Source of the DNA: an uncultured Planctomycetia bacterium
GTDB lineage: Bacteria > Omnitrophota > Gorgyraeia > Duberdicusellales > 4484-171
Reading direction: 5' to 3'
Length of the DNA stretch: 64,000 nucleotides
NCBI GenBank assembly: GCA_964629655.1
Contig: CAZVQU010000001.1
Coordinates: 292,056 to 356,055 of the forward strand
Below the pieces are notes generated by a model that saw only the letters and a program-made list of their open reading frames with translations, made no database searches and was not told the origin of the DNA. The position numbers and the translations under genes are program-made. Positions 36,756 to 57,872 of the stretch are shown here, piece by piece. The first letter of the stretch is position 1. Each line of letters starts with the position of its first letter.

Positions 36756-38717
36756 CTATGCAAGTAGCCTCTCCCATCTATGTAGCGAATCATCAAAACA
36801 CCAATATTTCAAAATAAATTCTTTAATTTCTAAGAAGTTTTCTATCTTACTGTTACCCAGAGACTCTTCAACCGCCGACCTTAACTCCTCAGCGTTCCTC
36901 ACTTTTGAATAATATTTCTCAAATCCCTGTAACGGACTCATAAACATACTGTTATTAAAAACAGGCGTTATAACTTTACATCCAGTCATTAAAGCTTCCA
37001 AAGCAACGGTAGAATTGCCAACTATCACAACCTTAGCAGCCTCAAGTAAATCTTTCAACGACCTATCCTTAACTATCCGGCCGCGGTTGCTAATATCCAT
37101 GTTCACCTCATCTAATGTCTGTTTAAAAGGCAAACAAGGATGTTCTCTCAGCCAAACTTTAAACGCTGAAGGCTGAGGAAATGCTTCATAAAATAAAGAA
37201 ATTAATGCCTGGTCTTCTATTTTCTTTCCCCACCCCACAAGAAGCACTACATTCTTCTTTCTGGGAAAATCTTGTCTATTGAGATATTCATTTAAATATA
37301 AATATCGTATAGCTTCGACTTTTATAGCACGAGGATACCCATAATCTTTCATAACTTTCAATGGAACATCTCCATTACAAGCTAAAGCATCAGGCAGAGG
37401 CAACGAATCCATTTCACTCCGGTGATGAGAATAAGGAAAGAAATTTTTCGGTACAGAGCTATGTATAAAAGCTATTGTTTTTGTCCGCGGAGACACTATC
37501 TGTTTAGCGGAGCATAAAGCTTTCTCCCAAGCCTGCATTTCAGCATAATAAATACATTGATCAATTCCAGAGAAATAAGAAAACATGCTTTTAAACAACT
37601 CAAGATGTAAAATCCCCCTTACACCCACACCGCCCACAAAAGAATCACGCATTAATTTCTTAAGAAAAAAAGTTGACTCCGGGAGAGACAAATTCTTACA
37701 AAGAGTATCTTTGGAAGTTAATCTCTCTACCTTTAAGAAAATTAATGTTTGGCGTAACCATAAGAAAAATACTCTCAGCAATATTTTCAAAGACAAAAAT
37801 TCATAAAAAAGAAAATTTACCTCTCCGTTTCTCTGAAATTTCTCAGCCAGCATAACCGCATCAGCATAATTTTTTCTATACAAGTAATTATACATCCATA
37901 TCCATATAATTTTCTTATCCATCTTAAGAATCTTATCCTGGAGCCAAGGGGTATACTTATTCTTCAATACACCTTTCGTGGCCGCCTGTTCATCTACGGA
38001 CGGAAAATAACTAACAAACAAAATTGTCTTTTTAGGATTAGGGATTCTTGATTTAACAGGCCCCATAATCCATCTTGCTCTAAACGCACGGAAAGTGTAA
38101 ATAGCCAAATTTGCTAATCCTTTAAAAGCAGAGTTGAATATGGCGACATGGTTAAAATAAGGCTTTGCGCTTTGGTTAAATAAATTCCATCTCCGATAGA
38201 ACGGTTTAATGCTTAAGCCTTTAGTGGAGTTGCGGTTGCAAACCTTCTCCAACGCGGAGCAAAATAAAGAGTCCACAAAAGAAAAAATACATAAATCGAA
38301 AGCCCCTGATAGTATAATATTATCTATAGCTTGTAACTGGGCAATACGAAAAAAAATATCTGTTTTTAGAGAATTTTTCTCAGACAACAAAGAAAACCAC
38401 CAGGCGCTAACCCCGCTTCCCGGAAGAAAAAACCAATCTCTTATGGTTTTACCGCCTACAATAGACTTACCAAGAACAGACGACCACTCAGGAAGCCTCT
38501 CTCGTAATGTATCAACCTCTGAATCTACTAATTTAGCAGTTTCCTCGACCTTTACACTATCAGCGCCGATTGATTGGCAGAAACCTTTTATATCGCAAAT
38601 CAATTTTTGATTAGGCGTTAAAGGAAACAATACAATAGAGGCGGATTTTAACCGGCTTATTCTCTTTTGCAATAGCTTTACATTAATTTTCTGGTCAAAG
38701 GCTATTAAAACTCTCAT
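36756..38717 (-). CDS. Large GT-B-like capsule-biosynthesis-type protein (possible KpsC/KpsS/LpsZ 'Capsule_synth'-like or other retaining transferase)
   Basis: 653 aa with no TM. C-terminal ...KVVIVGNSTVALEALMTGCKVITP resembles the nucleotide-sugar-binding end of Capsule_synth/GT-B enzymes. Weak. Confidence 0.3.
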   Translation of the reverse strand: MRVLIAFDQKINVKLLQKRISRLKSASIVLFPLTPNQKLICDIKGFCQSIGADSVKVEETAKLVDSEVDTLRERLPEWSSVLGKSIVGGKTIRDWFFLPGSGVSAWWFSLLSEKNSLKTDIFFRIAQLQAIDNIILSGAFDLCIFSFVDSLFCSALEKVCNRNSTKGLSIKPFYRRWNLFNQSAKPYFNHVAIFNSAFKGLANLAIYTFRAFRARWIMGPVKSRIPNPKKTILFVSYFPSVDEQAATKGVLKNKYTPWLQDKILKMDKKIIWIWMYNYLYRKNYADAVMLAEKFQRNGEVNFLFYEFLSLKILLRVFFLWLRQTLIFLKVERLTSKDTLCKNLSLPESTFFLKKLMRDSFVGGVGVRGILHLELFKSMFSYFSGIDQCIYYAEMQAWEKALCSAKQIVSPRTKTIAFIHSSVPKNFFPYSHHRSEMDSLPLPDALACNGDVPLKVMKDYGYPRAIKVEAIRYLYLNEYLNRQDFPRKKNVVLLVGWGKKIEDQALISLFYEAFPQPSAFKVWLREHPCLPFKQTLDEVNMDISNRGRIVKDRSLKDLLEAAKVVIVGNSTVALEALMTGCKVITPVFNNSMFMSPLQGFEKYYSKVRNAEELRSAVEESLGNSKIENFLEIKEFILKYWCFDDSLHRWERLLA

Positions 38718-38749
38718 TATTTTTAAATTTTAATATTAACTAAAACTAC

Positions 38750-39499
38750 TCACAAACATCCGTTGGAAGCATACAGATAACACGAATGCTCTTTGGAAGC
38801 TTTTTCCATATTTAATTTGCCTCCGGCGCCTAACAATATAGGCAAACCGCCCGCAACATCCCAAAGCATTATGTCCTTTTCGTAATAAACATCGGATCTC
38901 CCTATTGCTACATACGCTATTGATAACGCGGCCGAACCTAAAAACCGAATCTTCTTATAAGAACGTACGTCTTCTATAAACTTTTGGATGCCGTCAGAAG
39001 AAAAATCTGTGTTTACCGGAAATCCGCTGCATAAAACAGCCTTGCTCTTCTGGGCGGTATTGCTCACTTTTACAGAAACATCATTAAGCCAAGCGCCAAT
39101 ATCCGCGATACCCGTGAATAACTCGAATCTGTTGAAATCATAAACAGCGCCCAATACAGGTGTATCTTTCTGCCAAAGGCCTATAGAAATACAGGAAAGA
39201 GGAATCCCCCGCTTATAATTTAAAGTACCGTCTAAAGGGTCAACAATCCAAGTGAATTCCTGATCAGCTCCTGAAATCAATCCACTCTCTTCGGAAAGAA
39301 TTGAAAAATTAGATTTTTTTTTCAAACAATCAAAAATAATCCGTTCAGATTCGGTGTCAGCCGCGATCTTGATATCCCGTCCAAGCTCCGCGTTAACCCT
39401 TTTACTTAATTGTTTATGTTCTGAAAGAAACGCCCCGGCCGAACAAACAGCCTCTTTAGCTATCTCTAACCAAGTTTTAACACCGGTTTCAGGCAACAT
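38750..39499 (-). CDS. Inositol-monophosphatase-superfamily phosphatase (IMPase/CysQ-like; possibly PAP 3'-nucleotidase)
   Basis: WIVDPLDGTLNY (metal-binding DPxDGT motif) plus the upstream EE and WxD blocks; 249 aa. Confidence 0.65.
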   Translation of the reverse strand: MLPETGVKTWLEIAKEAVCSAGAFLSEHKQLSKRVNAELGRDIKIAADTESERIIFDCLKKKSNFSILSEESGLISGADQEFTWIVDPLDGTLNYKRGIPLSCISIGLWQKDTPVLGAVYDFNRFELFTGIADIGAWLNDVSVKVSNTAQKSKAVLCSGFPVNTDFSSDGIQKFIEDVRSYKKIRFLGSAALSIAYVAIGRSDVYYEKDIMLWDVAGGLPILLGAGGKLNMEKASKEHSCYLYASNGCL

Positions 39500-40424
39500 T
39501 CTCTATCTCCTTAAGCCCGGATATTAAATTGTTAACTGCTTTAATTTCCATAGACTTCCGACACTCCGCGGTATACGAGCCTACATGAGGTGTCAAGATA
39601 ACTTGAGGATATTTTCTCAGAAGCCCGGAATAGGGCTCACAGTTAAAAGTATCTATCCAAGCTCCTTTAATTTTCCCCTCCTCTAATGCCCGCGCTAAGG
39701 CTTCTTCATTGACCGAACTTCCCCGGGCAGCATTTAATAAAAAAGTCCCTTTTTTAATAAGCTCAAATTCATCTTTGCCGATAATCTCGCCCGCGCCGCT
39801 GGAATGAACTGTAATTACGTCTGCCTGAGAAAGCGCCTTATTAAGCGGAAATACTTCAATTCCCTCTATGTTTTCCTGTAAGTTAGGGTCAACAGCAATA
39901 ACATTGGCACCAAAACCCTTCAGTAGCTCGGCAACCCTTCTGCCAATGCGGCCAAAACCAACGATTGCGACTGTCTTGCCTTTAATCTGGACACCAATCC
40001 TCTTTTTCCACTCACCTTGATGTAAATCTTTATCCATCTGAGGAATCATCCTCAACAAACTAAGTAAAGCTCCTAAGGTTAACTCGGCAACAGCATCAAC
40101 CGGGGCACGGGGAGTTGAATATACTTTAATCCCCAAATCCTTCGCGGCTTCTAAATCAACATTTGACATGCCCGACCCGCAACGGGAAATTACCTTTAAT
40201 TTTGTTTTTCCCAAAACATCACGGCTAAGCGGCTCCAACCCGGCAATAAGCCCTGTTACCTTATCCGACAAAAGTTCCAACAGTTCCTCTTTGGTTAATC
40301 TACGCTTATAAGGATTTTCAATAATTTCACAGCCTTCTCCCGCCAAATAAATCAAAGGAGCCCGATCCTGAACCCCGAATGTAGAAGGTCCTAACAAAAC
40401 TTTTACGCCTCCTAGCTGCTTCAT
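39489..40424 (-). CDS. D-isomer-specific 2-hydroxyacid dehydrogenase (SerA/GyaR-like)
   Basis: TVAIVGFGRIGRRVAELLKGFGANVIAVD (GxGxxGxxxA NAD site), catalytic LTPHVGSYT. Confidence 0.75.
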   Translation of the reverse strand: MKQLGGVKVLLGPSTFGVQDRAPLIYLAGEGCEIIENPYKRRLTKEELLELLSDKVTGLIAGLEPLSRDVLGKTKLKVISRCGSGMSNVDLEAAKDLGIKVYSTPRAPVDAVAELTLGALLSLLRMIPQMDKDLHQGEWKKRIGVQIKGKTVAIVGFGRIGRRVAELLKGFGANVIAVDPNLQENIEGIEVFPLNKALSQADVITVHSSGAGEIIGKDEFELIKKGTFLLNAARGSSVNEEALARALEEGKIKGAWIDTFNCEPYSGLLRKYPQVILTPHVGSYTAECRKSMEIKAVNNLISGLKEIENVA

Positions 40425-40454
40425 TTCTTTCTCCCTATTAATCCGCTAAAAAAC

Positions 40455-41375
40455 CTACTCTTCAATTAATCTCTGTTCTCGATAATATTTGACCCACTCA
40501 TTGAAATGATTTACCCCCATCAAAAGCCCTTCGGCGTCACATAAATTACAGGGAGGAAAATTACGATTTTCTTTAGCAAGATTGATTCGAACTTTCTTTA
40601 AAATATCATTATTCCAAATTTCCAAAATTGAATCGCTATTAACATTTCCAACAATTAGCTTCCTACCCCAATCATGAGTGCATAGAAGAACCCGCCCTTC
40701 ATAGTCAACGAAGGTTTGATAAAAAGGGTGGTGACAAGCCCGTTTAGCCGGTTTTTCAACCGCGTTTATGCCAATATCTTTATTTTCCAATGTCCCAGCC
40801 CGATTAGTAAGCGTAATGCCATAATGTCCTTCCGGCGACAACCACCGCGCTCTCAGAACAACCCGATTATCTCCTAACCCTGTTTGCCTCTTTAAGTTAT
40901 TAAAATGCTCCTTCTGATGAGGGCCGTCGTACATGCTAATACAGATTGCGTCAAGCCCAGCAGCGAACAAATCAAGGAGCCTTTCCGAAGTTAACAAGTC
41001 TCCGTTAGTTATAACTTCTACACGCGCCCCAGGACAGTAATGCTTAGAGAGGGCGATAAGTTTTCCAATGTTTTCATGAAGTAACGGTTCGCTGAAAGCT
41101 GAATAGTGAATAATCCCATCAAAATCTACCCTTTTAAGATCTTTCATAATCTTCTCATAAAGTTCTACAGGCATATACTTGTTAGTATTAGGAAAAATCT
41201 TGGGGTCGTTTCGGGGACAAAAAATACACTTGCGATTGCATAATCCTGAAATATCAAACTCGATTATCGAAAATAACGGAGGTATATTGGCGGCTGCTTT
41301 TCCCTGTTGATAAATATCCAGCAATCTGCTCTTTCTGCCTATATCGGGATCAAAAAATCTACATTTTTTCTCCAT
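40455..41375 (-). CDS. Radical SAM enzyme with SPASM/twitch-like C-terminal Cys cluster
   Basis: CNRKCIFC (CxxxCxxC); C-terminal CHHPFYQ...CTHDW...CNLC cysteines. Confidence 0.65.
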   Translation of the reverse strand: MEKKCRFFDPDIGRKSRLLDIYQQGKAAANIPPLFSIIEFDISGLCNRKCIFCPRNDPKIFPNTNKYMPVELYEKIMKDLKRVDFDGIIHYSAFSEPLLHENIGKLIALSKHYCPGARVEVITNGDLLTSERLLDLFAAGLDAICISMYDGPHQKEHFNNLKRQTGLGDNRVVLRARWLSPEGHYGITLTNRAGTLENKDIGINAVEKPAKRACHHPFYQTFVDYEGRVLLCTHDWGRKLIVGNVNSDSILEIWNNDILKKVRINLAKENRNFPPCNLCDAEGLLMGVNHFNEWVKYYREQRLIEE

Positions 41376-42917
41376 TTAGCTATTTCCTTTCTCAGATATA
41401 CGTTTAAAATCCCATTTTGATTCTTTTTCAGTAATACGATAGAATATTCGTTTCAAGATGTTAAAAACGCTATTGGCTAAAAAGGTTTCCCCTTCGGCTA
41501 TTCTTATCAATCCGTAGTAAATTTTGGGGAGCTTAAAATATAATTGAAAAGTCCGGAATAGGCCTCGAAGTTCTTTGTTGGAAATTTGATTAAGGTCAAG
41601 GCACGATTCCGCTCTATAAACATTTTCATACTCTTTTTCTTTAATAGGGTCGAAAAGTTTTTCTTTTATACACAAATCTCTCAGCTCAGTGCCTCGATAA
41701 GGATGGAAAAAAGTAAGAGTAGTAGTCGTTGGCTTTGCCTGCCTGTTGAGTTCTATAGTTTCAAATATCTCCTTTCTCGTTTCGTAAGGTATGCCGATCA
41801 TGTCAAAGGTTGAACTGCGTATTTTATATTTACGCGCTAAGCCGATTACCCGGACAACCTGCTCATTCTTATAATTTCTTCCCAAAACATTTCTTCTTAC
41901 CTTTGGGCTGCCGGATTCTAACCCTACGCATATGTTGCGACATCCTGCTTCAACAATTTTAGAGAATTGTTCTTCTTTTATGAGTTCAGGATGTAAATTT
42001 ATAGTAAAGGGGAGACCAACGTGTTTCTTGTAAAGCTTGCAAAAATTCTCAGCTACTTCATGTTTGTGGAGGGGGAAAAGATCATCAAAAAACATATTAA
42101 AATTCAGATTGTATTTTTCCTTGAAGAATGCCATCTCCTGAACCAATAACTCGGTTCTTTTTATTCTATAATATTCGCCTTTATCTTTATAAATCTGAGA
42201 CTTGGCGCGATTTGCACAATATTTACAAGGAAACAAACATCCGCGGGTCATTCCAAAATGGCCTATTCTGTATATTTTACCGGCTAATGGTTTTAAAATG
42301 TGGCGTTCATCAAAAATGCTCCAATCCGGACGTAGAATCTTATTAATGTCAAGCAATGGCCTTACTTCATTTTTGTAAATTTTTCCGTTTTCTTTAATCC
42401 ATAAATTCTTTATATCCTTAATGTCTCTTTTTTGCTCTATATTATTGCAGAGCTCCGTTAAGGCCTCTTCTCCTTCGCCTCTGCACACGATATCCACGCA
42501 ATCCTCGGCAATCACCTCCTCAGGAGCAAAGGTAGCGGTTGGCCCACCTACCACCGTTACGATATCTTTATATTTTTTTCTAATTTCTCTCAACAATTCT
42601 AAGCTAAAGCTGTAATTGGGGTCGACAACGCTAGCGGCAATTATATCAGGTTTGAATAACTCTATTTCACGTTCAAACTCAACAACAGGATCCGCGTCTC
42701 TCTCTACTAATCCGTATTTTTTTAAATCCGGATTACGTACCTGTAAAGCTGAAGCACGTAACTCTTCGTCGTTCTGAATATTGCCGCATTTAATAAACGT
42801 CGTGTCGAACAACTTGACCTGGTGGCCGTCTCTCTTTAGATACGCTGATAGATAACAAACGCCAACCGGTACGCGCGTTATCATTACTTTGTTGGGATAT
42901 AAAAAAAGAACTCTCAT
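41376..42917 (-). CDS. Cobalamin-binding (class B) radical SAM enzyme
   Basis: N-terminal B12-binding-like region (MRVLFLYPNKVMITRVPVGVCYLSAYLKRDGHQV), GMTRGCLFPCKYC radical SAM motif; 513 aa. Confidence 0.75.
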   Translation of the reverse strand: MRVLFLYPNKVMITRVPVGVCYLSAYLKRDGHQVKLFDTTFIKCGNIQNDEELRASALQVRNPDLKKYGLVERDADPVVEFEREIELFKPDIIAASVVDPNYSFSLELLREIRKKYKDIVTVVGGPTATFAPEEVIAEDCVDIVCRGEGEEALTELCNNIEQKRDIKDIKNLWIKENGKIYKNEVRPLLDINKILRPDWSIFDERHILKPLAGKIYRIGHFGMTRGCLFPCKYCANRAKSQIYKDKGEYYRIKRTELLVQEMAFFKEKYNLNFNMFFDDLFPLHKHEVAENFCKLYKKHVGLPFTINLHPELIKEEQFSKIVEAGCRNICVGLESGSPKVRRNVLGRNYKNEQVVRVIGLARKYKIRSSTFDMIGIPYETRKEIFETIELNRQAKPTTTTLTFFHPYRGTELRDLCIKEKLFDPIKEKEYENVYRAESCLDLNQISNKELRGLFRTFQLYFKLPKIYYGLIRIAEGETFLANSVFNILKRIFYRITEKESKWDFKRISEKGNS

Positions 42918-43996
42918 CTTAATGTTGCCTCCTCTTCTTCACCTTTCTTGCTATCTAAATTAGAAATATTATAAGCGTTACGCCATTGAGCATCAGCATA
43001 ATAAATGCGATAGACGAGTTTCATAGTCTCCAAAGCATCTTTACTGCCGCCGGACTTAATTTTTGTTCCTTTTGCTATAACATCAGCAAATTCGTAAATC
43101 TCATCCCGCCAAGAATTATCCTCTAGGTATGATATGACCTCCTCCTGTAAAGTGCCTACGGCAGAATCACACCTTCTCCCAACAGCAAGCTTCTCGCCGC
43201 CGTAACTTTTAGAACCGCTAAGAATGCCTCGCAGTTCCAGATACCCTTCAGTTAAAGTTATGTGCAGAGTAAACCGATGCTGCCACTGGGTGGCGGTAGA
43301 GTGCAGCATTGCAATTCGGCCCTTAGTGTCTCGCATGAGGGCAAAAGCGTTATCCTCTACATCGTGATGCCAATAATTATTAGAAACATAACTTTTCACC
43401 TCCAAAAACTCTCCACAAAACAACCTCATCAAATCAACCATATGAATACCCTGGTCAAGCAATATCCCTCCGCCGGAAAATTTGCGTTCGGCGCGCCACT
43501 CTCCGGTAAAAGGAATCATTGTGCTTTTACCGTAAACACCGCGTAGGTTAACAATTTCACCGAGCTCACCGGACTTAACTATTCGCAAAGCTTCCCGTAC
43601 AGAGTTGTGATAACGATGGTTAAATCCGTACTTTAGCAACAAGCCCGCACGCTTTTTCTCAACTTCTATTACCCGTTCAACGTCGGAAACATTTCGTCCC
43701 GGGGGCTTTTCACAAAATACATGCAGACCGCGCTCTAAGGCAGCAATAGTAACATCGGCTGCCAGATAATTCGGCAAGGAAACAAATAAAATGTCCAATG
43801 GTTGCTCTAAGAGCTGACGATAGTCAGAAAAACAATGCACTCCATCAGGCCTAACGCCGTGCTCGAGAAATTCCCGGTCACAGACTGCTACGGTCTGTAA
43901 TCCCGGGTGTTGGTCTATATAATGGCGGCGGCGCTTACCTACCACCCCAAATCCGGCAATTCCAACTTTTAATTTCTCTTTGTTTCTCATAGCCAT
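42914..43996 (-). CDS. Gfo/Idh/MocA-family NAD(P)-dependent oxidoreductase (sugar or sugar-nucleotide dehydrogenase)
   Basis: LKVGIAGFGVVGKRR..., EKP motif region (HVFCEKPPG), about 360 aa. Confidence 0.7.
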   Translation of the reverse strand: MAMRNKEKLKVGIAGFGVVGKRRRHYIDQHPGLQTVAVCDREFLEHGVRPDGVHCFSDYRQLLEQPLDILFVSLPNYLAADVTIAALERGLHVFCEKPPGRNVSDVERVIEVEKKRAGLLLKYGFNHRYHNSVREALRIVKSGELGEIVNLRGVYGKSTMIPFTGEWRAERKFSGGGILLDQGIHMVDLMRLFCGEFLEVKSYVSNNYWHHDVEDNAFALMRDTKGRIAMLHSTATQWQHRFTLHITLTEGYLELRGILSGSKSYGGEKLAVGRRCDSAVGTLQEEVISYLEDNSWRDEIYEFADVIAKGTKIKSGGSKDALETMKLVYRIYYADAQWRNAYNISNLDSKKGEEEEATLR

Positions 43997-44015
43997 CCTC
44001 CCCTATTAAGCACCT

Positions 44016-45236
44016 TTATGAAGATGATAAAGATAAAATAAATTGACTGATACGTTCGCATGCTTTACCATCCAAACGCGGATAAATCAGGCTCTTTAAT
44101 TGCCTACGCTTCATTTGATATTGGTCATTTCCTCTAATAAAAATATCTCCTATATAATCAAGCACTTCGGGCCAATTACGAGCTTTTGGCCCAGGAAGGT
44201 CATTATCATAGTCAACAAAAAAGCCATGCTCTTTTCGATAACCTTCATAATCAAACTTAGCGAAAACAAAAGGTTTATCATAAATCAAGAAGTCAGCAAA
44301 AAGAGATGAATAATCGGTAATGAGAAGGTCGGTTTTGCTAAGAATCTTGTTTATTTCATCGCCGGAATAACTAAAACTTTTTATATTATTGTAACCGTTG
44401 AAGTTGGGAATTTTTTGTCGCTTTGGCGTATTGGGATGAAAACCAATAGCAATGATTGCCTTAATTTCTTCTAATAACTGATCTAACGCTTTCAAATCAA
44501 AACCAAACTTGAATATGCTAAACATAGAGTCACTTCTCCATGTAGGCAGCAAAAAAAGGCGCCTCCTGCCAGTCGCACAAAAGGCTGCATAATCTTTGTC
44601 TCGATTCAAAGCAACATTGTCGCTGCCAGGATCAAGGAGAAGGTCGGTTTTGGGAGTGCCTGTTGGAATGATTCTATCGTCGCTGATTTTGTAGTGGTGT
44701 TTGGTTGCGGCAAAAGTAAATTTCGATGATGTTATCGCGTAGTCGGGCTTAATCAGATAAGCATATGAATTGCGCAAATAGTTATAGATTTTCCAGAAAA
44801 GAGAACAGCGTAACGACAAACTCATATCCTTTATAGGGTAAATAGCGTGATCTAAGTTAATCATTATGCCTCCCCGGGAGACAAATTCATTCACGTCTCT
44901 AATGCCATGGGTAACAATGAAATATTTAGCCCTTAAAGTTATCAGCATTCCCCTCAGGCTATAGGCATAATAAGCGTCGATATTGTCTTCTCGCAGCTTA
45001 AGGCTCAGGCTGTAATCTTTAGTTATCCATACCGCGCGAATATCAGAATAGTTATTTTTCACATAAAAATATAAATGCTTACTGTTTCCTCTGAACTTTC
45101 TGCCGTTCCAGCATCCAAAAAGCCAAATTTTTGAATCTCTGGGAAAGAAACCGGAGAAAAAATACAAAATATAAGAAAGCATTTGCAGGAATATACAAAA
45201 TAGAGTAATTATGTATTTTTTTGTTATTAACAGCAT
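44016..45236 (-). CDS. CDP-glycerol (or related CDP/CMP-alcohol) glycerophosphotransferase, TagB/TagF family
   Basis: N-terminal TM, KIWLFGCWNGRKFRGNSKHLYFYV (the TagB/TagF W.FG...NSKYLY signature) and C-terminal LLITDYSSLFADFLIYDKPFVF (ITDYSS block). Confidence 0.7.
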   Translation of the reverse strand: MLLITKKYIITLFCIFLQMLSYILYFFSGFFPRDSKIWLFGCWNGRKFRGNSKHLYFYVKNNYSDIRAVWITKDYSLSLKLREDNIDAYYAYSLRGMLITLRAKYFIVTHGIRDVNEFVSRGGIMINLDHAIYPIKDMSLSLRCSLFWKIYNYLRNSYAYLIKPDYAITSSKFTFAATKHHYKISDDRIIPTGTPKTDLLLDPGSDNVALNRDKDYAAFCATGRRRLFLLPTWRSDSMFSIFKFGFDLKALDQLLEEIKAIIAIGFHPNTPKRQKIPNFNGYNNIKSFSYSGDEINKILSKTDLLITDYSSLFADFLIYDKPFVFAKFDYEGYRKEHGFFVDYDNDLPGPKARNWPEVLDYIGDIFIRGNDQYQMKRRQLKSLIYPRLDGKACERISQFILSLSSS

Positions 45237-45292
45237 GCTTTAAATATTAAAATATCTTTACTATCGTTTCAAATTTGTTTTGCTTCATATCC

Positions 45293-46084
45293 TTAACAAT
45301 TTACATCCTTGTAATTTGCTATCAGGCTATCGTTCTCCATAAAACGTTCTACTCTTTTTAAATCTTCTAAAGTATCTACGCTATAAGTTTCGGACTCTGT
45401 GGGGACCATCTTAACCCTGTATCCATTCCCCAAAACCCTTAACATATCTATAGATTCAATCACTTCAAGCGGTGTCGAAGGAAGATTATTAAACTTAATT
45501 AAAAAATCCCTGCGAAAAGGATCTATGGAAATCTGTTTATTCATAGGTATTTCCTTCGAGTATTTTTTTCGTGAAGGAATAGGCTCTCTTGAAAAATAAA
45601 GCGCGAAATTATCTTTATCAACCACAACCTTAACAGCGTTAGGATCCTGATGCTCTTTGAGAGACCTTATCGGCGCCATAAGGTTTACAACTACCACAGC
45701 ATCGTTTTCTAACATAGGCTTGACTGCTTGATTTATCATTTCCGGATAAACCATAGGCTCATCTCCTTGAACCATTACTACTATATCTATCCTTTCTTTC
45801 GTAGCCTCTTCTATTTTTAACATAGCTTCAGCGGTTCTATCGGAGGCCCGCTGATGTGTATCTTTAGTCATCACCACTTTCATATTATTCTGAATACAAT
45901 ACTCCTCTATCTCTCTATCGCAGGTAGCAATATAAACATCACAAAGCATACCTGCCATTTTACTTCTAAAATAGACATGCTCAATCATAGGAATCCCGCA
46001 GATCTTAGCAAGAGGCTTGCCGGGAAACCGCATTGAAGCCATTCGAGCAGGAATAATGCCGATTATATTCATTTTATCTTTCAT
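45293..46084 (-). CDS. kdsB: 3-deoxy-manno-octulosonate cytidylyltransferase homologue (CMP-Kdo synthetase family, KdsB/KpsU-like)
   Basis: IGIIPARMASMRFPGKPL, VMVQGDEPMV, NAVKVVVDKDNFALYFSREPIP, VLGNGYRV and VDTLEDLKRVE all line up with the conserved blocks of E. coli KdsB (IIPARYASTRLPGKPL / VQGDEPM / NAVKVV..ALYFSR..IP / YGYR / VDTPEDLERV). Confidence 0.8.
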   Translation of the reverse strand: MKDKMNIIGIIPARMASMRFPGKPLAKICGIPMIEHVYFRSKMAGMLCDVYIATCDREIEEYCIQNNMKVVMTKDTHQRASDRTAEAMLKIEEATKERIDIVVMVQGDEPMVYPEMINQAVKPMLENDAVVVVNLMAPIRSLKEHQDPNAVKVVVDKDNFALYFSREPIPSRKKYSKEIPMNKQISIDPFRRDFLIKFNNLPSTPLEVIESIDMLRVLGNGYRVKMVPTESETYSVDTLEDLKRVERFMENDSLIANYKDVNC

Positions 46085-46091
46085 GCCATAA

Positions 46092-47033
46092 CTATTCCCA
46101 GGAATCCTTTCTTGCCCAATCTACCGATTTAAAAGCACGAAGTATTCCCTGTAAATAAGAAATAATCCTGCCTCTACCTTTAAAGGCGGGGATTTTTAAA
46201 ACAGGTTTACTTAAACCTGCGATTATTGACTCGATTCTTTTTTTCTTCTCACAGCTTAATCGCCCTTTTTGGCAAAAATAACTTACAAGTTCTGTTGCAA
46301 AATCATACTTTTTGTACGCCACCGACGCTATAATTGGCGGGCCAATATGGGTAGGAACTGAATTCGCGCCAATGTAGTCTTTAAAGTATATAGCATCGGC
46401 AAAGATGATCTGTCCTCTACCCTTCTGATGACGCAAATTTCTTTTCCAATAGGCCGGCCTTAAATCAAATAAGCTAAAACCGGCACCTCTCAAATAAGAA
46501 TCAACATCAGCAAACAATGGTTGTTCTTTGTAAAGCTCGGAAAATCCAACTTCAACTTCTAAGCCACAGACATTATCCAAAACTTTAGCGCCGCCCTTCA
46601 AAATATTCAACTCATAACCGTCAGTGTCAATTTTGATGAAATCAGCTTTATCAGCTAAGGGAGTATTATCTAAACTATTAGCATCCATAAAGACTTCCCT
46701 CAATGAATCAAAACGTTCACTGAAAGGAAATCTATTAAAAAATTCGGGATCGAGCCTCAGGCAAGATGCGTTCTTGTTATTTGGGGCTACAAAAAATTTT
46801 AACCGGCAAGGTTTTTCGGCTAGGCAATAATTATAATAGGTAACATTCTTACGTTTTTTTGCGTCAGTTAAATTTCTGAATTCTTCCTCGCTCGGCTCAA
46901 AACCTATTACAGATAAACGGTCGCCCAACATGCTCCATTTTTGATCAAAACCGCCCGCGGCGCCAATGTCAATAAATACAAATTTTTCTAAATTTAACAA
47001 ATCATAAAGTTCTTTTAATTTTTTGCTGCTCAT
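46092..47033 (-). CDS. FkbM-family SAM-dependent methyltransferase
   Basis: FVFIDIGAAGGFDQ matches the FkbM DIGAN.G SAM-binding motif; 313 aa. Confidence 0.6.
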   Translation of the reverse strand: MSSKKLKELYDLLNLEKFVFIDIGAAGGFDQKWSMLGDRLSVIGFEPSEEEFRNLTDAKKRKNVTYYNYCLAEKPCRLKFFVAPNNKNASCLRLDPEFFNRFPFSERFDSLREVFMDANSLDNTPLADKADFIKIDTDGYELNILKGGAKVLDNVCGLEVEVGFSELYKEQPLFADVDSYLRGAGFSLFDLRPAYWKRNLRHQKGRGQIIFADAIYFKDYIGANSVPTHIGPPIIASVAYKKYDFATELVSYFCQKGRLSCEKKKRIESIIAGLSKPVLKIPAFKGRGRIISYLQGILRAFKSVDWARKDSWE

Positions 47034-47036
47034 TCT

Positions 47037-47819
47037 TTACCCCCGGATTTTGGCTGTTACTTTTGCTAACTCTTCTTTGCATTTAGCTCCTAAAAAAAGA
47101 GCGTCGAAGCTAAAAGCGACAAACTTGTAGCCTCTATCTACGTATTCTAAAACTTTTTTATAGTCTGGAGGGACAGAATGAATCCCCATTGGTTTATTAA
47201 GCTTATTACAGATTTCCTCATATCTTCGCAGAGCTGCCTTTACTTCCGGACGCTCAAATTCTCCCGGGTACCCCAAAGAAGCAGATAAATCATAGGGCCC
47301 TATTATGCTTGCGTCAACCCCATCTGTATCCAAGATTTGTTCCAGATTGTCTATTGCTTTTATATGTTCAATCTGGACTATTACAATGCTACCAGAATCA
47401 ACCCACTTTTTATATTCTTCAAATTTCAAACCATATCCTTGAGCCCTGGCTAAACCCACACCTCGATTACCTATAGGAGGATATTTTACAGAGTTTACAG
47501 CTCTGATAGCCTCCTCCTTTGTGTTTATCATAGGCACAATTACACCGCGCGCGCCAGCATCCATAACCCTTTTTATAAGATTAGGGTCATTCTCACCAAC
47601 CCTAACCATAGGGATAACCCCGGCTAAGTCTACAACCTGGATAATATTCTTAGCCTCAGCTAAGGTAATTGCCGAATGTTCCATATCTACACAAAGCCAG
47701 TCAAATCCAAGTTTTGCCATAATTTCGGCTATGCAAGTATCACCAATGGTTATCCAAGACCCAATAGTTAACTTCCCTGAGCTTAGACACTGTTTGAGAT
47801 TTTTATTTACACTCGACAT
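47037..47819 (-). CDS. HpcH/HpaI-family class II (metal-dependent) pyruvate aldolase
   Basis: TIGSWITIGDTCIAEIMAKLGFDWLCVDMEHS...VMPMVRV...PMINTKEEA TIM-barrel pattern typical of HpcH/HpaI/citrate-lyase-beta family. Confidence 0.65.
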   Translation of the reverse strand: MSSVNKNLKQCLSSGKLTIGSWITIGDTCIAEIMAKLGFDWLCVDMEHSAITLAEAKNIIQVVDLAGVIPMVRVGENDPNLIKRVMDAGARGVIVPMINTKEEAIRAVNSVKYPPIGNRGVGLARAQGYGLKFEEYKKWVDSGSIVIVQIEHIKAIDNLEQILDTDGVDASIIGPYDLSASLGYPGEFERPEVKAALRRYEEICNKLNKPMGIHSVPPDYKKVLEYVDRGYKFVAFSFDALFLGAKCKEELAKVTAKIRG

Positions 47820-47877
47820 AATCTTACTCCCCCTACTTTTAAAGATTAAATAACTTTCATCAAAATTAAACAGGTAT

Positions 47878-48639
47878 TTATAAAAATATATCTATGGGCA
47901 AATTAAATTCGGTTTTAATACTTTGTTCTTCTCTATCGATAATAGGTGTTCTTTTTTGAATATAAAATACAGCAAAAATTAACTTCTTAAATAGTGTTAC
48001 AGCGGTCTTTGGAGAAAGGCCCCAATATCCATACGCGCCGACTAATTGAGGGGAAGGCTTTAGCCCTTCTATCATTCCAAGAACATCTTTAAAATTGAAT
48101 ACTACATAATTAGCGATTTCGCAATTACTCTTTTTCCCTGAGAAATCAATATGCTGATAACTTTCTCTTATGTCATTGATCCCTCTTTCTTTTGTAATCC
48201 TCAATGAAATAATAAAATACCCTCCAGGCTTTACCCTATCCCAACAATAATTAATTATTTTGCCAGTCTCTATATTCCAATCAGCGCAGCTCAATGAGGC
48301 CACCACATCATAACTTTTGTTTAATTTCTGTTTTAAAATATCACCGGCAATAAACTTTACCGGCATTGATAATTTCTGATTATTCCGGGCCCACTCGATG
48401 GCATTTTTATTAATGTCAATGCCGGTATAAGAATCGAAAATAAACTTCTCGCTCAATGCCGCTCCCAGTCCCCCGCAGGCACATCCGACATCCAAAATAT
48501 CACCAAATGTTTTTCTGAAACCCGCGATTTTATTGAATACCCATCTCTCGGAAGGATAAAATTCCTCCCATTTCTGCCTATGGGAGCTGAAAAAATCCTG
48601 AATCTGCTGTGACTTATATTCAATATTCTTGTTGCCCAT
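47878..48639 (-). CDS. Class I SAM-dependent methyltransferase
   Basis: ILDVGCACGGLGAAL (motif I GxGxG). Confidence 0.6.
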   Translation of the reverse strand: MGNKNIEYKSQQIQDFFSSHRQKWEEFYPSERWVFNKIAGFRKTFGDILDVGCACGGLGAALSEKFIFDSYTGIDINKNAIEWARNNQKLSMPVKFIAGDILKQKLNKSYDVVASLSCADWNIETGKIINYCWDRVKPGGYFIISLRITKERGINDIRESYQHIDFSGKKSNCEIANYVVFNFKDVLGMIEGLKPSPQLVGAYGYWGLSPKTAVTLFKKLIFAVFYIQKRTPIIDREEQSIKTEFNLPIDIFL

Positions 48640-48694
48640 TTAAAATGTCCTCTTCCCTTTATCTATCATTACCGTAAAGGATACATCCATACTA

Positions 48695-49579
48695 TTATAT
48701 AAATTTTCTTTTAAAATCTGCAAAGACTTCCCGATATAAAGTAGTATCTCTCTCCAAGATAACTCCCCAAAATCCCTCGAAATCTATCTCTCTCATAAAC
48801 ATTCTCAGAAATCCGCTTAGAAAAGGTATCCAGCGGGGATACTGATAATAAATTTGCTCATGGATAATCTTCCACCCTGTATAATTCATAAGCAGTTTCC
48901 AATCTTCCGGATTCAATTCAAAGATATGTTCATTCTCTACTACCTTATGACTCTTTTTCCTCTTACGCATAGAAGACAACCCAACACGGCTTTTTCGCAA
49001 ATAAGGCACTGTTACTGCTATTCTGTTACACTTTAGATTCTTGCCTAATCGCTTAAGAAAATCTATCGGGTTATGCAGATGCTCTATTATCTGAAAAAGA
49101 ATAACCAAATCAATCTTCCTATCCCCTAATGTAAAATCCTCCCCATTACACAAAACGGCCTTATGTCCCTGAGCTTTAATTTTTTCTACTGAAATTGAGT
49201 CGCAGTTAACGCTGATGGAATCAATATTGAATACGCCATCAGTAAGCCCTTCGAGATACCGCAGGTGCGTACGCGCTGAATCTCCAATATCCACAATGGT
49301 CAACTCACCGGCAGGAAATCCTTTCAGCGCCTTAAGCATTAAAGAACATTGAAAGGCGTGCTGGATGCGTAGTTTAGTCTCCCAGAAGCTGTTGAAATCC
49401 AGAGGACAAGAGTATTGGTTGGAGATATCCGGCTTTATCCTCTGCAGTTTTCTTATGATTTCTCTATAGTTATTCTGAAACAAGGTCAATCGAAGAGAGA
49501 ATTTGGCTATCCCCTGAATAAAAGCTTTGATATCAACACCAATTGTTCTTAGAATTTTTTTGACGATTAATTTAAGCAT
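48695..49579 (-). CDS. Class I SAM-dependent methyltransferase (probable)
   Basis: LTIVDIGDSARTHL (motif I-like), DLVILFQIIEHLHNP (typical post-motif II/III EH block). Confidence 0.5.
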   Translation of the reverse strand: MLKLIVKKILRTIGVDIKAFIQGIAKFSLRLTLFQNNYREIIRKLQRIKPDISNQYSCPLDFNSFWETKLRIQHAFQCSLMLKALKGFPAGELTIVDIGDSARTHLRYLEGLTDGVFNIDSISVNCDSISVEKIKAQGHKAVLCNGEDFTLGDRKIDLVILFQIIEHLHNPIDFLKRLGKNLKCNRIAVTVPYLRKSRVGLSSMRKRKKSHKVVENEHIFELNPEDWKLLMNYTGWKIIHEQIYYQYPRWIPFLSGFLRMFMREIDFEGFWGVILERDTTLYREVFADFKRKFI

Positions 49580-49616
49580 AATTTGTTAATCCAAACTAAT
49601 AAAACACAAACGCGGC

Positions 49617-51408: not shown

Positions 51409-51420
51409 ACATAGTAAGTT

Positions 51421-52494: not shown

Positions 52495-52495
52495 A

Positions 52496-53617: not shown

Positions 53618-53671
53618 AATACTACCTCCTACAGCTTTAGATCCAAGAATCTACACCTAGCATTAGCTAAA

Positions 53672-55830: not shown

Positions 55831-55930
55831 TTTGAGTTACCTATAAAGTGCGTTAAACGTACAAGTTTAGCCCTTTCATTCTATAACTATGCAGGATTGA
55901 GCCGAACTGTAGGGACTTGGAATCGGGCAA

Positions 55931-55949
55931 TTTTCAAACAGTTTGAAAA
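55931..55949. promoter_or_regulatory. Perfect 19-bp palindrome in the 255-bp neuB-upstream intergenic gap; candidate operator or regulator binding site
   Basis: ttttcaaac a gtttgaaaa: 9-bp perfect inverted arms around a single central base. It lies about 100-120 bp upstream of the neuB-like start at 55830, in the only intergenic gap over 130 bp in the window. Confidence 0.3.
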
Positions 55950-56085
55950 ATTTTTCCTAAGATCTACCTCCTTTCCTGAAGCGTAAGATTTAGTCTGGAT
56001 ATTTTGCCCCCTCATATTCCATTCTCCTTTTCTGCATACTAAATTACCTTATACTTACCCATTGAAAAAGCTCCAACATTTATTC

Positions 56086-56736: not shown

Positions 56737-56840
56737 CCTCTTCCTCCTTAATATTTAATCGTATAGTAAAAGCCTGACCCCAAACACTAACTTAGCTATT
56801 ATCAATCCTCAAATATTTCCTTTAATTCAATAGAAAATAA

Positions 56841-57841: not shown

Positions 57842-57872
57842 ATTTTACTCTCTTGCTCAAACGTCTCTTCTT

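What the first reader, a model, noticed from the sequence alone, without database searches (positions are those of the whole stretch)
38750..49579. KdsB/KpsU-like cytidylyltransferase + TagF-like transferase + HpcH aldolase + 2-hydroxyacid dehydrogenase + phosphatase: possible non-canonical ulosonic/sugar-acid branch
A bona fide KdsB homologue (45293..46084; all conserved KdsB blocks visible) sits next to a TagB/TagF-type glycerophosphotransferase (44016..45236). KdsA, KdsC and KdsD homologues are absent from the window.

The same block instead carries an HpcH/HpaI class-II pyruvate aldolase, which in reverse could condense pyruvate with an aldose to a 3-deoxy-2-ulosonic acid. It also carries a D-2-hydroxyacid dehydrogenase, an IMPase-type phosphatase, a Gfo/Idh/MocA oxidoreductase, an FkbM and two SAM methyltransferases, and two radical SAMs.

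One reading is that the locus makes and CMP-activates a Kdo-like or smaller 2-keto/2-hydroxy acid by an aldolase route. It then installs it as an O-methylated phosphodiester or ketosidic substituent. That route is not a textbook pathway.
Basis: partly seen in the sequence, partly recalled or inferred. Interest (0 to 1): 0.7.

Follow-up and report, generated by a model that had tools for sequence, protein, structure and literature searches.

The report
Aldolase-fed CMP-sugar-acid cassette in glycan locus
Inside a very long surface-polysaccharide gene array sits a cassette, shared by bacteria and archaea but never studied, that probably builds a Kdo-like sugar acid with a pyruvate aldolase instead of the textbook synthase, activates it with CTP and attaches it to a surface glycan.

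Summary

The KdsB-like enzyme is not an ordinary LPS KdsB. It belongs to a separate subfamily (NCBIfam NF009905). Members are 53-73% identical to it, against bit scores of about 120-140 for solved KdsBs. The subfamily also occurs in archaea, CPR bacteria, Firmicutes and Chloroflexota.

In 82 related loci an HpcH aldolase lies within 2.5 kb of this gene in 63. Recurrent partners are a phosphatase (HAD or IMPase), a PGDH-like 2-hydroxyacid dehydrogenase, a 4-epimerase-like SDR or a Gfo oxidoreductase, sometimes a GmhA-like isomerase, methyltransferases, and a ~600-aa TIGR04326 protein. It models as a GT-B fold with a sialyltransferase-type HP motif.

This mirrors the Kdo route (KdsD/A/C/B plus transferase), with a class-II aldolase in place of KdsA. 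The aldolase reading is therefore supported by comparative genomics only.

The TagF-like gene is an occasional add-on, not a core partner. The product, the role of the 2-HADH and the TagF donor are unknown. I found no paper describing this cassette.

The parts
47037..47819 (-). HpcH/HpaI-family class-II (metal-dependent) pyruvate aldolase. Proposed to carry out the C-C condensation step, as the functional analogue of KdsA or NeuB.
   Evidence: PF03328, 2.7e-33. Below the cut-offs of HpaI, GarL and RhmA. Best PDB match is YfaU (2vws), 1.5e-44, with H48, R73, E151 and D177 aligned. A homologue lies within 2.5 kb of the KdsB-like gene in 63 of 82 loci.
45293..46084 (-). KdsB-like CTP:ulosonate cytidylyltransferase of the NF009905/PRK13368 subfamily.
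   Evidence: PF02348, 2.2e-48. NF009905 scores 301 bits, above the 255 cut-off. Metagenome relatives are 65-73% identical, against 117-140 bits to solved KdsBs. Catalytic R14, K23, D108 and D237 are kept. The canonical motifs RHxGIYxYR and LEQLR are replaced by KQxxIxPFRR and IDMLR.
38750..39499 (-). IMPase-family sugar-phosphate phosphatase. Proposed analogue of KdsC; in the more common cassette type a HAD phosphatase takes its place.
   Evidence: PF00459, 2.5e-45. Matches no equivalog. Overlaps the 2-HADH gene by 11 nt. IMPase homologues sit in the cassettes of L085, L088, L090, L060 and L081.
39489..40424 (-). D-2-hydroxyacid dehydrogenase resembling short-form 3-phosphoglycerate dehydrogenases. 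Its role is unresolved. It could supply hydroxypyruvate as the nucleophile, or act on the 2-oxo group.
   Evidence: PF02826/PF00389. TIGR01327 scores 206 bits, below the 454 cut-off. Best PDB match is 1wwk, a PGDH, 1.9e-48. Present in 39 of 82 loci.
42914..43996 (-). Gfo/Idh/MocA NAD(P) oxidoreductase. Proposed to oxidise a sugar hydroxyl to a ketone as a tailoring step, possibly paired with the aminotransferase.
   Evidence: PF01408/PF22725. 79% identical to the homologue in L085, 57-58% in L088 and L090, 70% in L037.
49617..50696 (-). Class I/II PLP enzyme (HisC/CobD-like).
   Evidence: PF00155, 3.5e-46. hisC model scores 240 bits, below the 276.55 cut-off. 62% identical homologue inside the L085 cassette; also present in L088.
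36756..38717 (-). TIGR04326-family protein with a GT-B fold. Proposed transferase for the CMP-ulosonate.
44016..45236 (-). TagB/TagF-type phosphotransferase (Glyphos_transf), an accessory member of the cassette. Its donor is unknown.
   Evidence: PF04464, 9.3e-56. TarF model scores 95 bits, below the 550 cut-off. H130 and H267 align with the TagF catalytic histidines. Homologues 52-59% identical lie inside cassettes in L088 and L090, but beside PK or APS-kinase genes in L087, L089 and L091.
46092..47033 (-). FkbM-family methyltransferase (tailoring).
   Evidence: PF05050, 8.2e-15. 62% identical homologue in L085. Other FkbM families (f19, f39) recur in the cassettes.
47878..48639 (-). Class-I SAM methyltransferase (tailoring).
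   Evidence: PF13847/PF13649/PF08241. 55% identical homologue in L085.
48695..49579 (-). Methyltransf_23-type SAM methyltransferase (tailoring).
   Evidence: PF13489, 1.4e-8. Homologues (family f32) directly follow the KdsB-like gene in L043 and L073.
41376..42917 (-). B12-binding radical SAM enzyme. A class-B methyltransferase type, possibly a C-methylase (tailoring).
   Evidence: PF02310 + PF04055. B12-rSAM genes lie inside or beside the cassette in about ten loci.
40455..41375 (-). Radical SAM/SPASM enzyme. Tailoring role with unknown chemistry.
   Evidence: PF04055 + PF13186. 61% identical homologue in L085. Family f44 occurs in L073 and L075.
35979..36743 (-). GT2 glycosyltransferase that follows the TIGR04326 gene in conserved order.
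   Evidence: PF00535, 1e-27. The order TIGR04326 then GT2 is seen in L085, L086 and L088, with 53-58% identity in L085 and L086.
34175..35935 (-). Polytopic protein with a weak Wzy_C match. Candidate repeat-unit polymerase or ligase.
   Evidence: PF04932, 2.4e-4, below the cut-off. A weak Wzy_C gene holds the same position in L085.

Best explanation
The block, properly about 36756-50696, is one variant of a widespread and uncharacterised cassette. I propose that it makes a CMP-activated 2-ulosonic (Kdo-like) sugar acid by an aldolase route and adds it to a Wzx/Wzy-type surface polysaccharide.

**Proposed steps. All are inferred from homology and gene neighbourhood; none is shown biochemically.**
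1. An aldose phosphate is supplied. In sister cassettes a GmhA-like SIS isomerase does this. The window has no such gene, so the supply would come from central metabolism.
2. The class-II HpcH aldolase (47037-47819) condenses pyruvate, or hydroxypyruvate made by the PGDH-like 2-HADH, with that aldehyde. This gives a 2-keto(-3-deoxy) sugar acid phosphate. The aldolase thus stands in for the PEP-dependent synthases KdsA and NeuB.
3. The IMPase-family phosphatase (38750-39499) removes the phosphate, as KdsC does.
4. The KdsB-like enzyme (45293-46084) forms the CMP-ketoside from CTP.
5. Tailoring follows: Gfo oxidoreductase plus class-I/II aminotransferase, two radical SAM enzymes, and FkbM plus two SAM methyltransferases.
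6. The TIGR04326 GT-B protein (36756-38717) transfers the residue. The GT2 and the Wzy-like protein extend or polymerise the glycan.
7. The TagF-like enzyme is an optional extra. It either adds a phosphodiester-linked group from a donor made elsewhere or is a second CMP-dependent transferase.
For: **The cytidylyltransferase is a separate, conserved subfamily.**
- It passes NF009905 at 301 bits against a cut-off of 255.
- Metagenome relatives are 65-73% identical. Solved KdsBs score only 117-140 bits.
- Catalytic residues are intact, but two motifs conserved in the canonical KdsBs aligned here are replaced and are invariant in their new form across the subfamily.

**It does not track LPS.** The subfamily occurs in Methanoregula, Hadarchaeum, Thermoplasmatales, Woesearchaeota, CPR bacteria, Syntrophomonadaceae, Oscillospiraceae and Dehalococcoidales.

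**Gene neighbourhood in 82 loci.**
- HpcH aldolase: 68 of 82 within 9 kb, 63 within 2.5 kb.
- 4-epimerase-like SDR: 63.
- HAD phosphatase: 46; IMPase: 3.
- 2-HADH: 39.
- PF04199 hydrolase: 21.

**Closest cassettes.**
- L085 has almost the same gene set as the window, at 49-79% identity, plus a SIS_2 gene.
- L088 and L090 also carry SIS_2, IMPase, 2-HADH, Gfo and the TagF-like gene. L090 carries a clear TIGR04326 gene (473 bits); in L088 an unscanned 613-aa protein with no Pfam hit holds that position.
- The SIS protein is GmhA-like: 130 bits against a cut-off of 209.

**The aldolase looks active and sugar-related.** Its catalytic residues are in place and its best solved relative is the 2-keto-3-deoxy-sugar aldolase YfaU.

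**The TIGR04326 protein looks like a CMP-sugar transferase.**
- It models confidently as GT-B.
- Its C-terminus matches the domain of the genetically validated Tannerella Pse/Leg transferases (PMC5420450).
- It keeps an HP motif.
- A weak Capsule_synth (KpsC/KpsS) family also recurs upstream of the aldolase in other loci.

**Operon-like packing** of the window genes.
Against: - There is no biochemical or chemical evidence. No product is known for any member of the cassette.
- The aldehyde partner is unidentified, and the window itself lacks the isomerase.
- The 2-HADH has no necessary place in the scheme. If it reduced the 2-oxo group it would destroy the anomeric centre that CMP activation needs.
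- In 14 of the 77 loci with at least 1.5 kb of upstream sequence, no aldolase lies within 2.5 kb.
- Identities of the aldolase and the cytidylyltransferase to the window proteins do not correlate across loci (Spearman 0.20, p = 0.11).
- That the replaced motifs contact Kdo rests on my recollection of the KdsB structure papers, not on a tool result.
- The source genome could not be inspected for kdsA, kdsC, kdsD or waaA.
Confidence: 0.5

Rival explanations
1. Side-chain acid. The aldolase, 2-HADH, phosphatase and O-methyltransferases build a reduced, O-methylated 3-deoxy-aldonic acid. An example is the 2-methoxy-4,5,6-trihydroxyhexanoyl group on the Treponema denticola flagellin nonulosonic acid. 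This acid would acylate the legionaminic-type sugar encoded next door. The KdsB-like enzyme would merely be a second nonulosonic-acid cytidylyltransferase.
For: - The T. denticola glycan is formally pyruvate plus glyceraldehyde, reduced at C2 and then O-methylated (structure quoted in PMC13439194).
- The window cassette abuts a Leg-type pathway: NeuB, NeuC-like, PtmE-like, PseF-like and WbuX genes.
- Methyltransferases are almost always present in the cassettes.
- This reading gives the 2-HADH a clear role.
Against: - NeuB lies within 9 kb in only 13 of 82 loci.
- The cassette contains no carboxylate-activating enzyme (ligase, ACP or CoA-transferase).
- The tight aldolase-cytidylyltransferase adjacency and the dedicated GT-B transferase are left unexplained.
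- The window already has a PseF/NeuA-type cytidylyltransferase at 50710-51408.
- Whether T. denticola carries this cassette could not be checked. Kurniyati 2017 is not held.
Confidence: 0.15
2. TagF-centred phosphodiester decoration. The KdsB-like enzyme makes a cytidine-linked donor that the TagF-like enzyme uses. The result would be a phosphodiester-linked or teichoic-acid-like substituent.
For: - The TagF-like protein keeps both catalytic histidines.
- No TagD, TarI or IspD-type CDP-alditol synthase is in the window.
- In the window, L088 and L090, the only cytidylyltransferase near the TagF-like gene is the KdsB-like one.
Against: - The TagF-like gene is absent from the 80 genome loci that carry the cytidylyltransferase.
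- Its relatives also stand without the cassette, beside pyruvate-kinase and APS-kinase genes (L089, L091) or a phosphonate-like gene set (L087).
- CTP_transf_3 enzymes make CMP-ketosides, not CDP-type pyrophosphate donors (established knowledge of KdsB and NeuA).
Confidence: 0.12
3. Ordinary CMP-Kdo supply. The gene is a KpsU-like second kdsB that activates Kdo made by a canonical KdsD/KdsA/KdsC pathway elsewhere in the genome. The aldolase and the other genes would be unrelated neighbours.
For: - The protein just passes the kdsB equivalog TIGR00466 (159.3 against 155.2) and keeps all catalytic residues.
- Public sources name its relatives CMP-Kdo synthetase.
- The source genome could not be examined.
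Against: - The subfamily is separate from solved KdsB and KpsU.
- It occurs in archaea and in monoderm bacteria.
- It is adjacent to the aldolase in 63 of 82 loci.
- The window has no KpsC/KpsS genes; other loci show only a weak match to that family.
- His184 is replaced by Gln, and EQ by DM, in motifs conserved in the canonical KdsBs aligned here.
Confidence: 0.08

Closest known systems
Canonical CMP-Kdo pathway: KdsD (SIS isomerase), KdsA (PEP-dependent Kdo8P synthase), KdsC (HAD phosphatase), KdsB, then WaaA or KpsC/KpsS transferases
   Same: The logic and order are the same: isomerase, C3 + Cn condensation, dephosphorylation, CTP activation by a homologous CTP_transf_3 enzyme, then transfer by a CMP-sugar-dependent transferase.
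   Different: - The condensing enzyme is a non-homologous class-II pyruvate aldolase, not a DAHP_synth_1 enzyme.
- The phosphatase is an IMPase here, or a different HAD subfamily in other cassettes.
- The isomerase, where present, is GmhA-like rather than KdsD-like.
- The cytidylyltransferase is a separate subfamily with changed motifs that I recall as sugar-contacting.
- The cassette also occurs in organisms without LPS.
Nonulosonic acid pathways (NeuB/NeuA, Pse, Leg), including the Tannerella Pse/Leg transferases of the BFO_1060 family
   Same: - Both produce a CMP-activated alpha-keto sugar acid.
- Both often lie in the same loci.
- Both are heavily tailored by methyl, acyl and amino groups.
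- The C-terminus of the transferase shares a domain and an HP motif with the BFO_1060 family.
   Different: - Most cassettes have no NeuB-type synthase.
- They have no UDP/GDP-HexNAc dehydratase, aminotransferase and acetyltransferase series.
- The aldolase uses pyruvate, not PEP.
Reversible pyruvate aldolases used to make ulosonic acids in vitro: Kdo aldolase (EC 4.1.2.23), sialic acid aldolase NanA, YfaU/RhmA, and hydroxyketoacid aldolases of the HpcH family
   Same: The chemistry is the same: pyruvate or hydroxypyruvate plus an aldose gives a 2-keto(-3-deoxy) sugar acid. YfaU is the best solved relative of the window aldolase.
   Different: The known enzymes are catabolic or are used as synthetic tools. 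Here the aldolase would work biosynthetically, coupled to a cytidylyltransferase.
TagF/TarF/TarL teichoic acid phosphotransferases and TagF-like capsule polymerases
   Same: The Glyphos_transf domain and both catalytic histidines are present.
   Different: - It is a short, single-domain protein of 406 aa.
- It scores far below the TarF and TarL cut-offs.
- No CDP-alditol synthase lies nearby.
- It belongs to a subfamily found beside PK and APS-kinase genes or inside this cassette.

Membership tests
KdsB / CMP-Kdo synthetase (EC 2.7.7.38) | CTP_transf_3 domain and the catalytic Arg/Lys loop, the QGDEP aspartate and the C-terminal VDT aspartate | tested here: met
   PF02348, 2.2e-48. R14, K23, D108 and D237 align with the KdsB residues.
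KdsB / CMP-Kdo synthetase (EC 2.7.7.38) | Scores above the curated equivalog cut-offs | tested here: inconclusive
   TIGR00466 scores 159.3 against 155.2, a bare pass. NF003948 scores 186 against 281, a fail. The subfamily model NF009905 scores 301 against 255, a pass.
KdsB / CMP-Kdo synthetase (EC 2.7.7.38) | The conserved C-terminal-domain motifs RHxGIYxYR and LEQLR. I recall these as Kdo-contacting; that assignment was not verified here. | tested here: not met
   They are replaced by (N)KQISIDPFRR and IDMLR. K183, Q184, D213 and M214 are invariant in 31 subfamily members.
KdsB / CMP-Kdo synthetase (EC 2.7.7.38) | Association with kdsA, kdsC, kdsD, waaA and LPS-bearing organisms | tested here: not met
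   None of these genes is in the window (Pfam scans of 54 ORFs). The subfamily occurs in archaea, CPR bacteria, Firmicutes and Chloroflexota. The rest of the source genome was not available.
KdsB / CMP-Kdo synthetase (EC 2.7.7.38) | CTP-dependent activation of Kdo | not testable with these tools
   This needs an enzyme assay.
HpcH/HpaI class-II aldolases | PF03328 TIM barrel with the metal-binding Glu and Asp and the catalytic Arg and His | tested here: met
   PF03328, 2.7e-33. H48, R73, E151 and D177 align with the corresponding YfaU residues. Their catalytic and metal-binding role is recalled from the YfaU literature.
HpaI, GarL and RhmA (characterised aromatic-catabolic and sugar-acid aldolases) | Score above the equivalog cut-off | tested here: not met
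   HpaI scores 193 against 368.8, GarL 171.5 against 406.75 and RhmA 160.5 against 441.
TagB/TagF CDP-glycerol glycerophosphotransferases | Glyphos_transf domain with the two catalytic histidines | tested here: met
   PF04464, 9.3e-56. H130 and H267 align with TagF H444 and H584. The TagF residue numbers are from memory.
TagB/TagF CDP-glycerol glycerophosphotransferases | A cognate CDP-glycerol or CDP-ribitol synthase (TagD, TarI/J) in the locus, and equivalog-level similarity | tested here: not met
   The window has no PF01467 or IspD-type gene. TarF scores 95 against 550 and TarL 73 against 1000.
TIGR04326 surface carbohydrate biosynthesis protein | Full-length match above the cut-off | tested here: inconclusive
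   The window protein scores 233.9 against 250. Homologues 35-47% identical are named TIGR04326 by JGI. The L090 homologue scores 473.
CMP-sugar (sialyl- or Kdo-type) GT-B transferases | GT-B fold with an HP motif in the nucleotide-binding domain | tested here: met
D-3-phosphoglycerate dehydrogenase (SerA) | Equivalog score | tested here: not met
   TIGR01327 scores 205.7 against 454. The closest structure is the short PGDH 1wwk.

The most novel reading that the evidence does not exclude
The cassette makes a sugar acid that is neither Kdo nor a known nonulosonic acid. One possibility is a higher-carbon (C10) 3-deoxy- or 3-hydroxy-2-ulosonic acid. It would form by aldol addition of pyruvate or hydroxypyruvate to a heptose 7-phosphate supplied by the GmhA-like isomerase, followed by amination and methylation. 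Bacteria and archaea would share this sugar acid as a new class of CMP-activated surface sugar. In some lineages the TagF-like enzyme would have been recruited to use a CMP-ketoside donor.
Probability: 0.2. Interest if true: 0.85.

Novelty: new variant of a known kind. Interest (0 to 1): 0.6.

Why it matters
Every established route to a CMP-activated ulosonic acid (Kdo, Kdn, Neu5Ac, Pse, Leg and their relatives) uses a PEP-dependent synthase of the KdsA or NeuB type.

A conserved cassette that instead pairs a pyruvate aldolase with its own cytidylyltransferase and transferase would be a third biosynthetic logic for this class of sugar. Carriers include archaea and monoderm bacteria.

- It would give gene candidates for the unassigned alpha-keto-acid sugars that DMB and CMP-sugar surveys keep finding. 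One example is the CMP-linked C10 ulosonic acids in the SugarBase preprint.
- It would correct the routine annotation of this subfamily as 'CMP-Kdo synthetase'.
- It would supply new enzymes for making ulosonic acids.

The cassette is small enough to reconstitute in vitro.

Tried and rejected
**Searches that found nothing or were uninformative.**
- A genome-contig scan with the single KdsB-like protein found nothing. It worked only with alignment A1.
- A metagenome-contig scan with the TagF-like protein found nothing. Contexts were obtained through the search for homologous proteins and the look-up of encoding contigs instead.
- The source organism was not identified. Exact-sequence look-ups return unnamed NCBI and Logan records. 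The closest named relatives of cassette proteins are Omnitrophota, Scalindua, Nitrospirae and Deltaproteobacteria MAGs. The genome-wide check for kdsA, kdsC and kdsD could therefore not be done.
- Literature: no paper holds HpcH together with pseudaminic. One irrelevant paper holds HpcH with cytidylyltransferase. Nothing useful turned up for TIGR04326 or LIC13510. A broad five-term search was uninformative. Kurniyati 2017 (PMC5182079) is not held.
- The correlation of aldolase and cytidylyltransferase identities across loci is weak (rho 0.20) and was not used as evidence.

**Ideas considered and rejected.**
- An inositol or aminocyclitol reading (IMPase, IolG-like Gfo, aminotransferase, BtrN-like rSAM, and a DHQS-like gene in some loci). 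It does not explain the invariant aldolase-cytidylyltransferase pair, and the window has no inositol-phosphate synthase.
- A phosphonate reading (a Fom3-like B12-rSAM plus a cytidylyltransferase). The window has no PEP mutase or phosphonopyruvate decarboxylase; only locus L087 shows such a set.
- The pyruvate-kinase genes beside some cassettes as a pyruvate supply for the aldolase. They are fused or adjacent to sulfate-activation enzymes, so they more probably serve those enzymes.

Full report
**Setting**

The whole 64-kb window is a single array of minus-strand genes with a GC content of about 0.36. Pfam and NCBIfam scans of all 54 ORFs of at least 100 aa show a very large surface-polysaccharide locus. 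It contains:
- a Wzx-type flippase and a Wzy-like protein;
- several GT2 and GT4 glycosyltransferases and a WecG/TagA-family glycosyltransferase;
- two sulfotransferases;
- a legionaminic-acid-type nonulosonic acid pathway at about 50.7-62.5 kb (NeuB, a NeuC-like epimerase, a PtmE-like CBS-nucleotidyltransferase, a PseF/NeuA-like cytidylyltransferase, a WbuX amidotransferase, DegT, a PglD-like acyltransferase, and KASIII plus an SDR);
- many radical SAM genes.

**The observation**

They are packed like an operon, with gaps from -11 to +58 nt. No KdsA, KdsC or KdsD homologue is in the window (the Pfam scans above). Catalytic residues are in place in three key enzymes:
- the cytidylyltransferase (R14, K23, D108, D237);
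- the aldolase (H48, R73, E151, D177, aligned to YfaU);
- the TagF-like enzyme (H130, H267, aligned to the TagF histidines).

**What the 'KdsB' is**

It is a member of the NCBIfam subfamily NF009905/PRK13368 (301 bits against a cut-off of 255). It only marginally matches the kdsB equivalog TIGR00466 and fails NF003948. Thousands of metagenome proteins are 65-73% identical to it. Solved KdsB and KpsU structures score only 117-140 bits.

In an alignment of 31 members (A1), two motifs conserved in the canonical KdsBs aligned here, RHxGIYxYR and LEQLR, are replaced by KQxxIxPFRR and IDMLR. The replacements are invariant or nearly so. I recall these motifs as lining the Kdo site, but that is memory, not a result obtained here.

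A scan of one genome per species with A1 returned more than 590 relatives. The best 80 (53-68% identity) include the following groups, which have no LPS, alongside many diderm bacteria:
- archaea: Methanoregula, Hadarchaeum, Thermoplasmatales, Woesearchaeota, Methanomicrobiales;
- CPR bacteria;
- Syntrophomonadaceae and Oscillospiraceae;
- Dehalococcoidales.

**Conserved neighbourhood**

I ran tblastn of the window proteins and of family representatives against these loci, and clustered the ORFs of the loci. The cytidylyltransferase has one dominant partner, the HpcH aldolase. It is present in 68 of 82 loci and lies within 2.5 kb in 63, usually immediately upstream.

Two types of cassette emerge.
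- **Type A (common):** a PGDH-like 2-HADH, a ~290-aa SDR that resembles nucleotide-sugar 4-epimerases, a PF04199 'cyclase' hydrolase, a HAD phosphatase and a ~600-aa TIGR04326 protein.
- **Type B (rarer, and the window's type):** a Gfo/Idh/MocA oxidoreductase, a GmhA-like SIS_2 isomerase (130 bits against a cut-off of 209), an IMPase, the 2-HADH and TIGR04326. A class-I/II aminotransferase, FkbM, an rSAM-SPASM enzyme and a TagF-like gene are often present too.

Locus L085 has almost the window's gene set at 49-79% identity, plus the isomerase. L088 and L090 are further examples. Methyltransferases, hexapeptide acyltransferases and B12-radical SAM genes are frequent additions.

The aldolase and cytidylyltransferase of a type-A locus (L086) are as similar to the window's proteins (68-69%) as those of the type-B locus L085. 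The two core enzymes therefore probably do the same thing in both types.

**The missing transferase**

It matches TIGR04326 at 233.9 bits against a cut-off of 250. Its C-terminus matches the BFO_1060 domain. That domain belongs to the Tannerella Pse/Leg-derivative transferases, which were validated by knock-out (PMC5420450).

TIGR04326, a GT2 and a Wzy-like gene follow one another in the same order in L085. TIGR04326 and the GT2 also follow one another in L086. In L088 an unscanned 613-aa protein with no Pfam hit stands before the GT2 in the TIGR04326 position.

**Mechanism proposed**

The conserved set parallels the Kdo pathway step for step:

| Kdo pathway | Cassette counterpart |
|---|---|
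| KdsD (isomerase) | GmhA-like SIS_2 protein (absent from the window) |
| KdsA (PEP-dependent synthase) | HpcH class-II aldolase, non-homologous |
| KdsC (phosphatase) | IMPase or HAD phosphatase |
| KdsB (cytidylyltransferase) | KdsB-like enzyme |
| WaaA or KpsC/KpsS (transferase) | TIGR04326 GT-B protein |

I therefore propose an aldolase-dependent route to a CMP-activated 2-ulosonic acid. The acid would be tailored by oxidation and amination (Gfo plus aminotransferase) and by O- or C-methylation (FkbM, two SAM methyltransferases, a B12-rSAM). It would then be incorporated into a Wzy-type glycan.

Every step is inferred from homology and context. The acceptor aldehyde, the carbon number of the product and the role of the 2-HADH are unknown. 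The 2-HADH might supply hydroxypyruvate as the nucleophile; this idea rests on the known promiscuity of HpcH aldolases (for example the PDB entry 6r62, a 'hydroxyketoacid aldolase'). I put confidence at 0.5.

**The TagF-like gene**

It looks functional, but it is not a core partner. It is absent from the 80 genome loci. It has its own subfamily at 48-59% identity. I examined five contexts of these relatives:
- two lie inside type-B cassettes (L088, L090);
- three stand beside pyruvate-kinase and APS-kinase or sulfurylase genes, or beside a phosphonate-like gene set, without the cassette (L087, L089, L091).

No CDP-alditol synthase accompanies it in the window. Its donor remains open.

**Rivals**

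1. The aldolase, 2-HADH, phosphatase and methyltransferases could make a reduced, methylated 3-deoxy-aldonic acyl group like that on the Treponema denticola flagellin sugar (PMC13439194). This explains the 2-HADH. It does not explain the cytidylyltransferase adjacency, the absence of NeuB from most loci, or the lack of an acyl-activating enzyme.
2. A TagF-centred phosphodiester pathway.
3. An ordinary KpsU-type supply of CMP-Kdo.

The evidence against the second and third is given in their entries. None of the three is excluded by experiment.

**Novelty**

I found no paper that describes this cassette. Untargeted surveys do report CMP-linked ulosonic acids of unknown origin (SugarBase preprint). 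I class the finding as a new variant of a known kind, namely CMP-ulosonic acid biosynthesis. It is of moderate to high interest and directly testable in vitro.

Noticed in passing
window 50710-62531: Next to the cassette lies a legionaminic-acid-type nonulosonic acid pathway. It comprises a PseF/NeuA-like cytidylyltransferase (168 bits, below the PseF cut-off), a PtmE-like CBS-nucleotidyltransferase, a WbuX amidotransferase (acetimidoyl group), a NeuC-like epimerase, NeuB, a PglD-like acyltransferase, an SDR plus KASIII (probably a 3-hydroxyacyl N-substituent), DegT, a B12-rSAM and a 4,6-dehydratase.
   Followed up: partly
window 60026-61465, 41376-42917, 25085-26503, 23444-25078; also 40455-41375, 14453-15409, 9061-10149: One polysaccharide locus holds four B12-binding radical SAM genes and three radical SAM/SPASM genes. 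That is an unusually high density. It suggests several C-methylations or other radical modifications of sugars.
   Followed up: no
window 20368-22401: Two adjacent sulfotransferase genes. No ATP sulfurylase or APS kinase is in the window. In related loci (L086, L087, L089, L090) the sulfate-activation genes sit next to the cassette or to the TagF-like gene.
   Followed up: partly
L086 5845-8028; L089 7483-9000; L090 5816-8893; L091 6095-7108: Pyruvate-kinase domains are fused or adjacent to ATP sulfurylase or APS kinase, beside the TagF-like gene or the aldolase-cytidylyltransferase pair. The L090 protein is a full pyruvate kinase (406 bits, above its cut-off). The purpose is unexplained; ATP regeneration for sulfate activation or pyruvate supply are two possibilities.
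   Followed up: partly
L087 1-7078: Beside a 59% identical TagF-like gene lies a set reminiscent of cytidylylated phosphonate (fosfomycin-type) chemistry: a TPP enzyme, an Fe-ADH, two B12-rSAM genes, a small nucleotidyltransferase and an APS-kinase-like gene. This hints that the TagF subfamily may transfer unusual phospho or phosphono groups.
   Followed up: no
L037 13787-14854; L066 7970-9115: Some type-B cassettes carry a 3-dehydroquinate-synthase-like sugar-phosphate cyclase next to a short-chain dehydrogenase. Its role beside an aldolase that could make a DAHP-like acid is unexplained.
   Followed up: no
window 13694-14419: A SASA-family (sialate O-acetylesterase-like) gene sits inside the biosynthetic locus.
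   Followed up: no
window 1984-3069, 26519-27610, 53672-54829: Three UDP-GlcNAc 2-epimerase-family genes in one window. This implies several separate ManNAc-type or hydrolysing-epimerase branches.
   Followed up: no
window 5969-7354, 15453-17090, 17167-18846, 29592-30638, 62545-63978: Five sizeable ORFs (348-559 aa) have no significant Pfam or NCBIfam family. Only weak matches were seen, below the cut-offs: PMT_2 for 29592-30638 and a mannobiose-phosphorylase-like hit for 17167-18846.
   Followed up: partly
window 32730-34202 and 31814-32767: A flavin amine-oxidase/UDP-galactopyranose-mutase-like protein and a GNAT acetyltransferase lie just downstream of the Wzy-like gene. The two ORFs overlap by 38 nt.
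   Followed up: no
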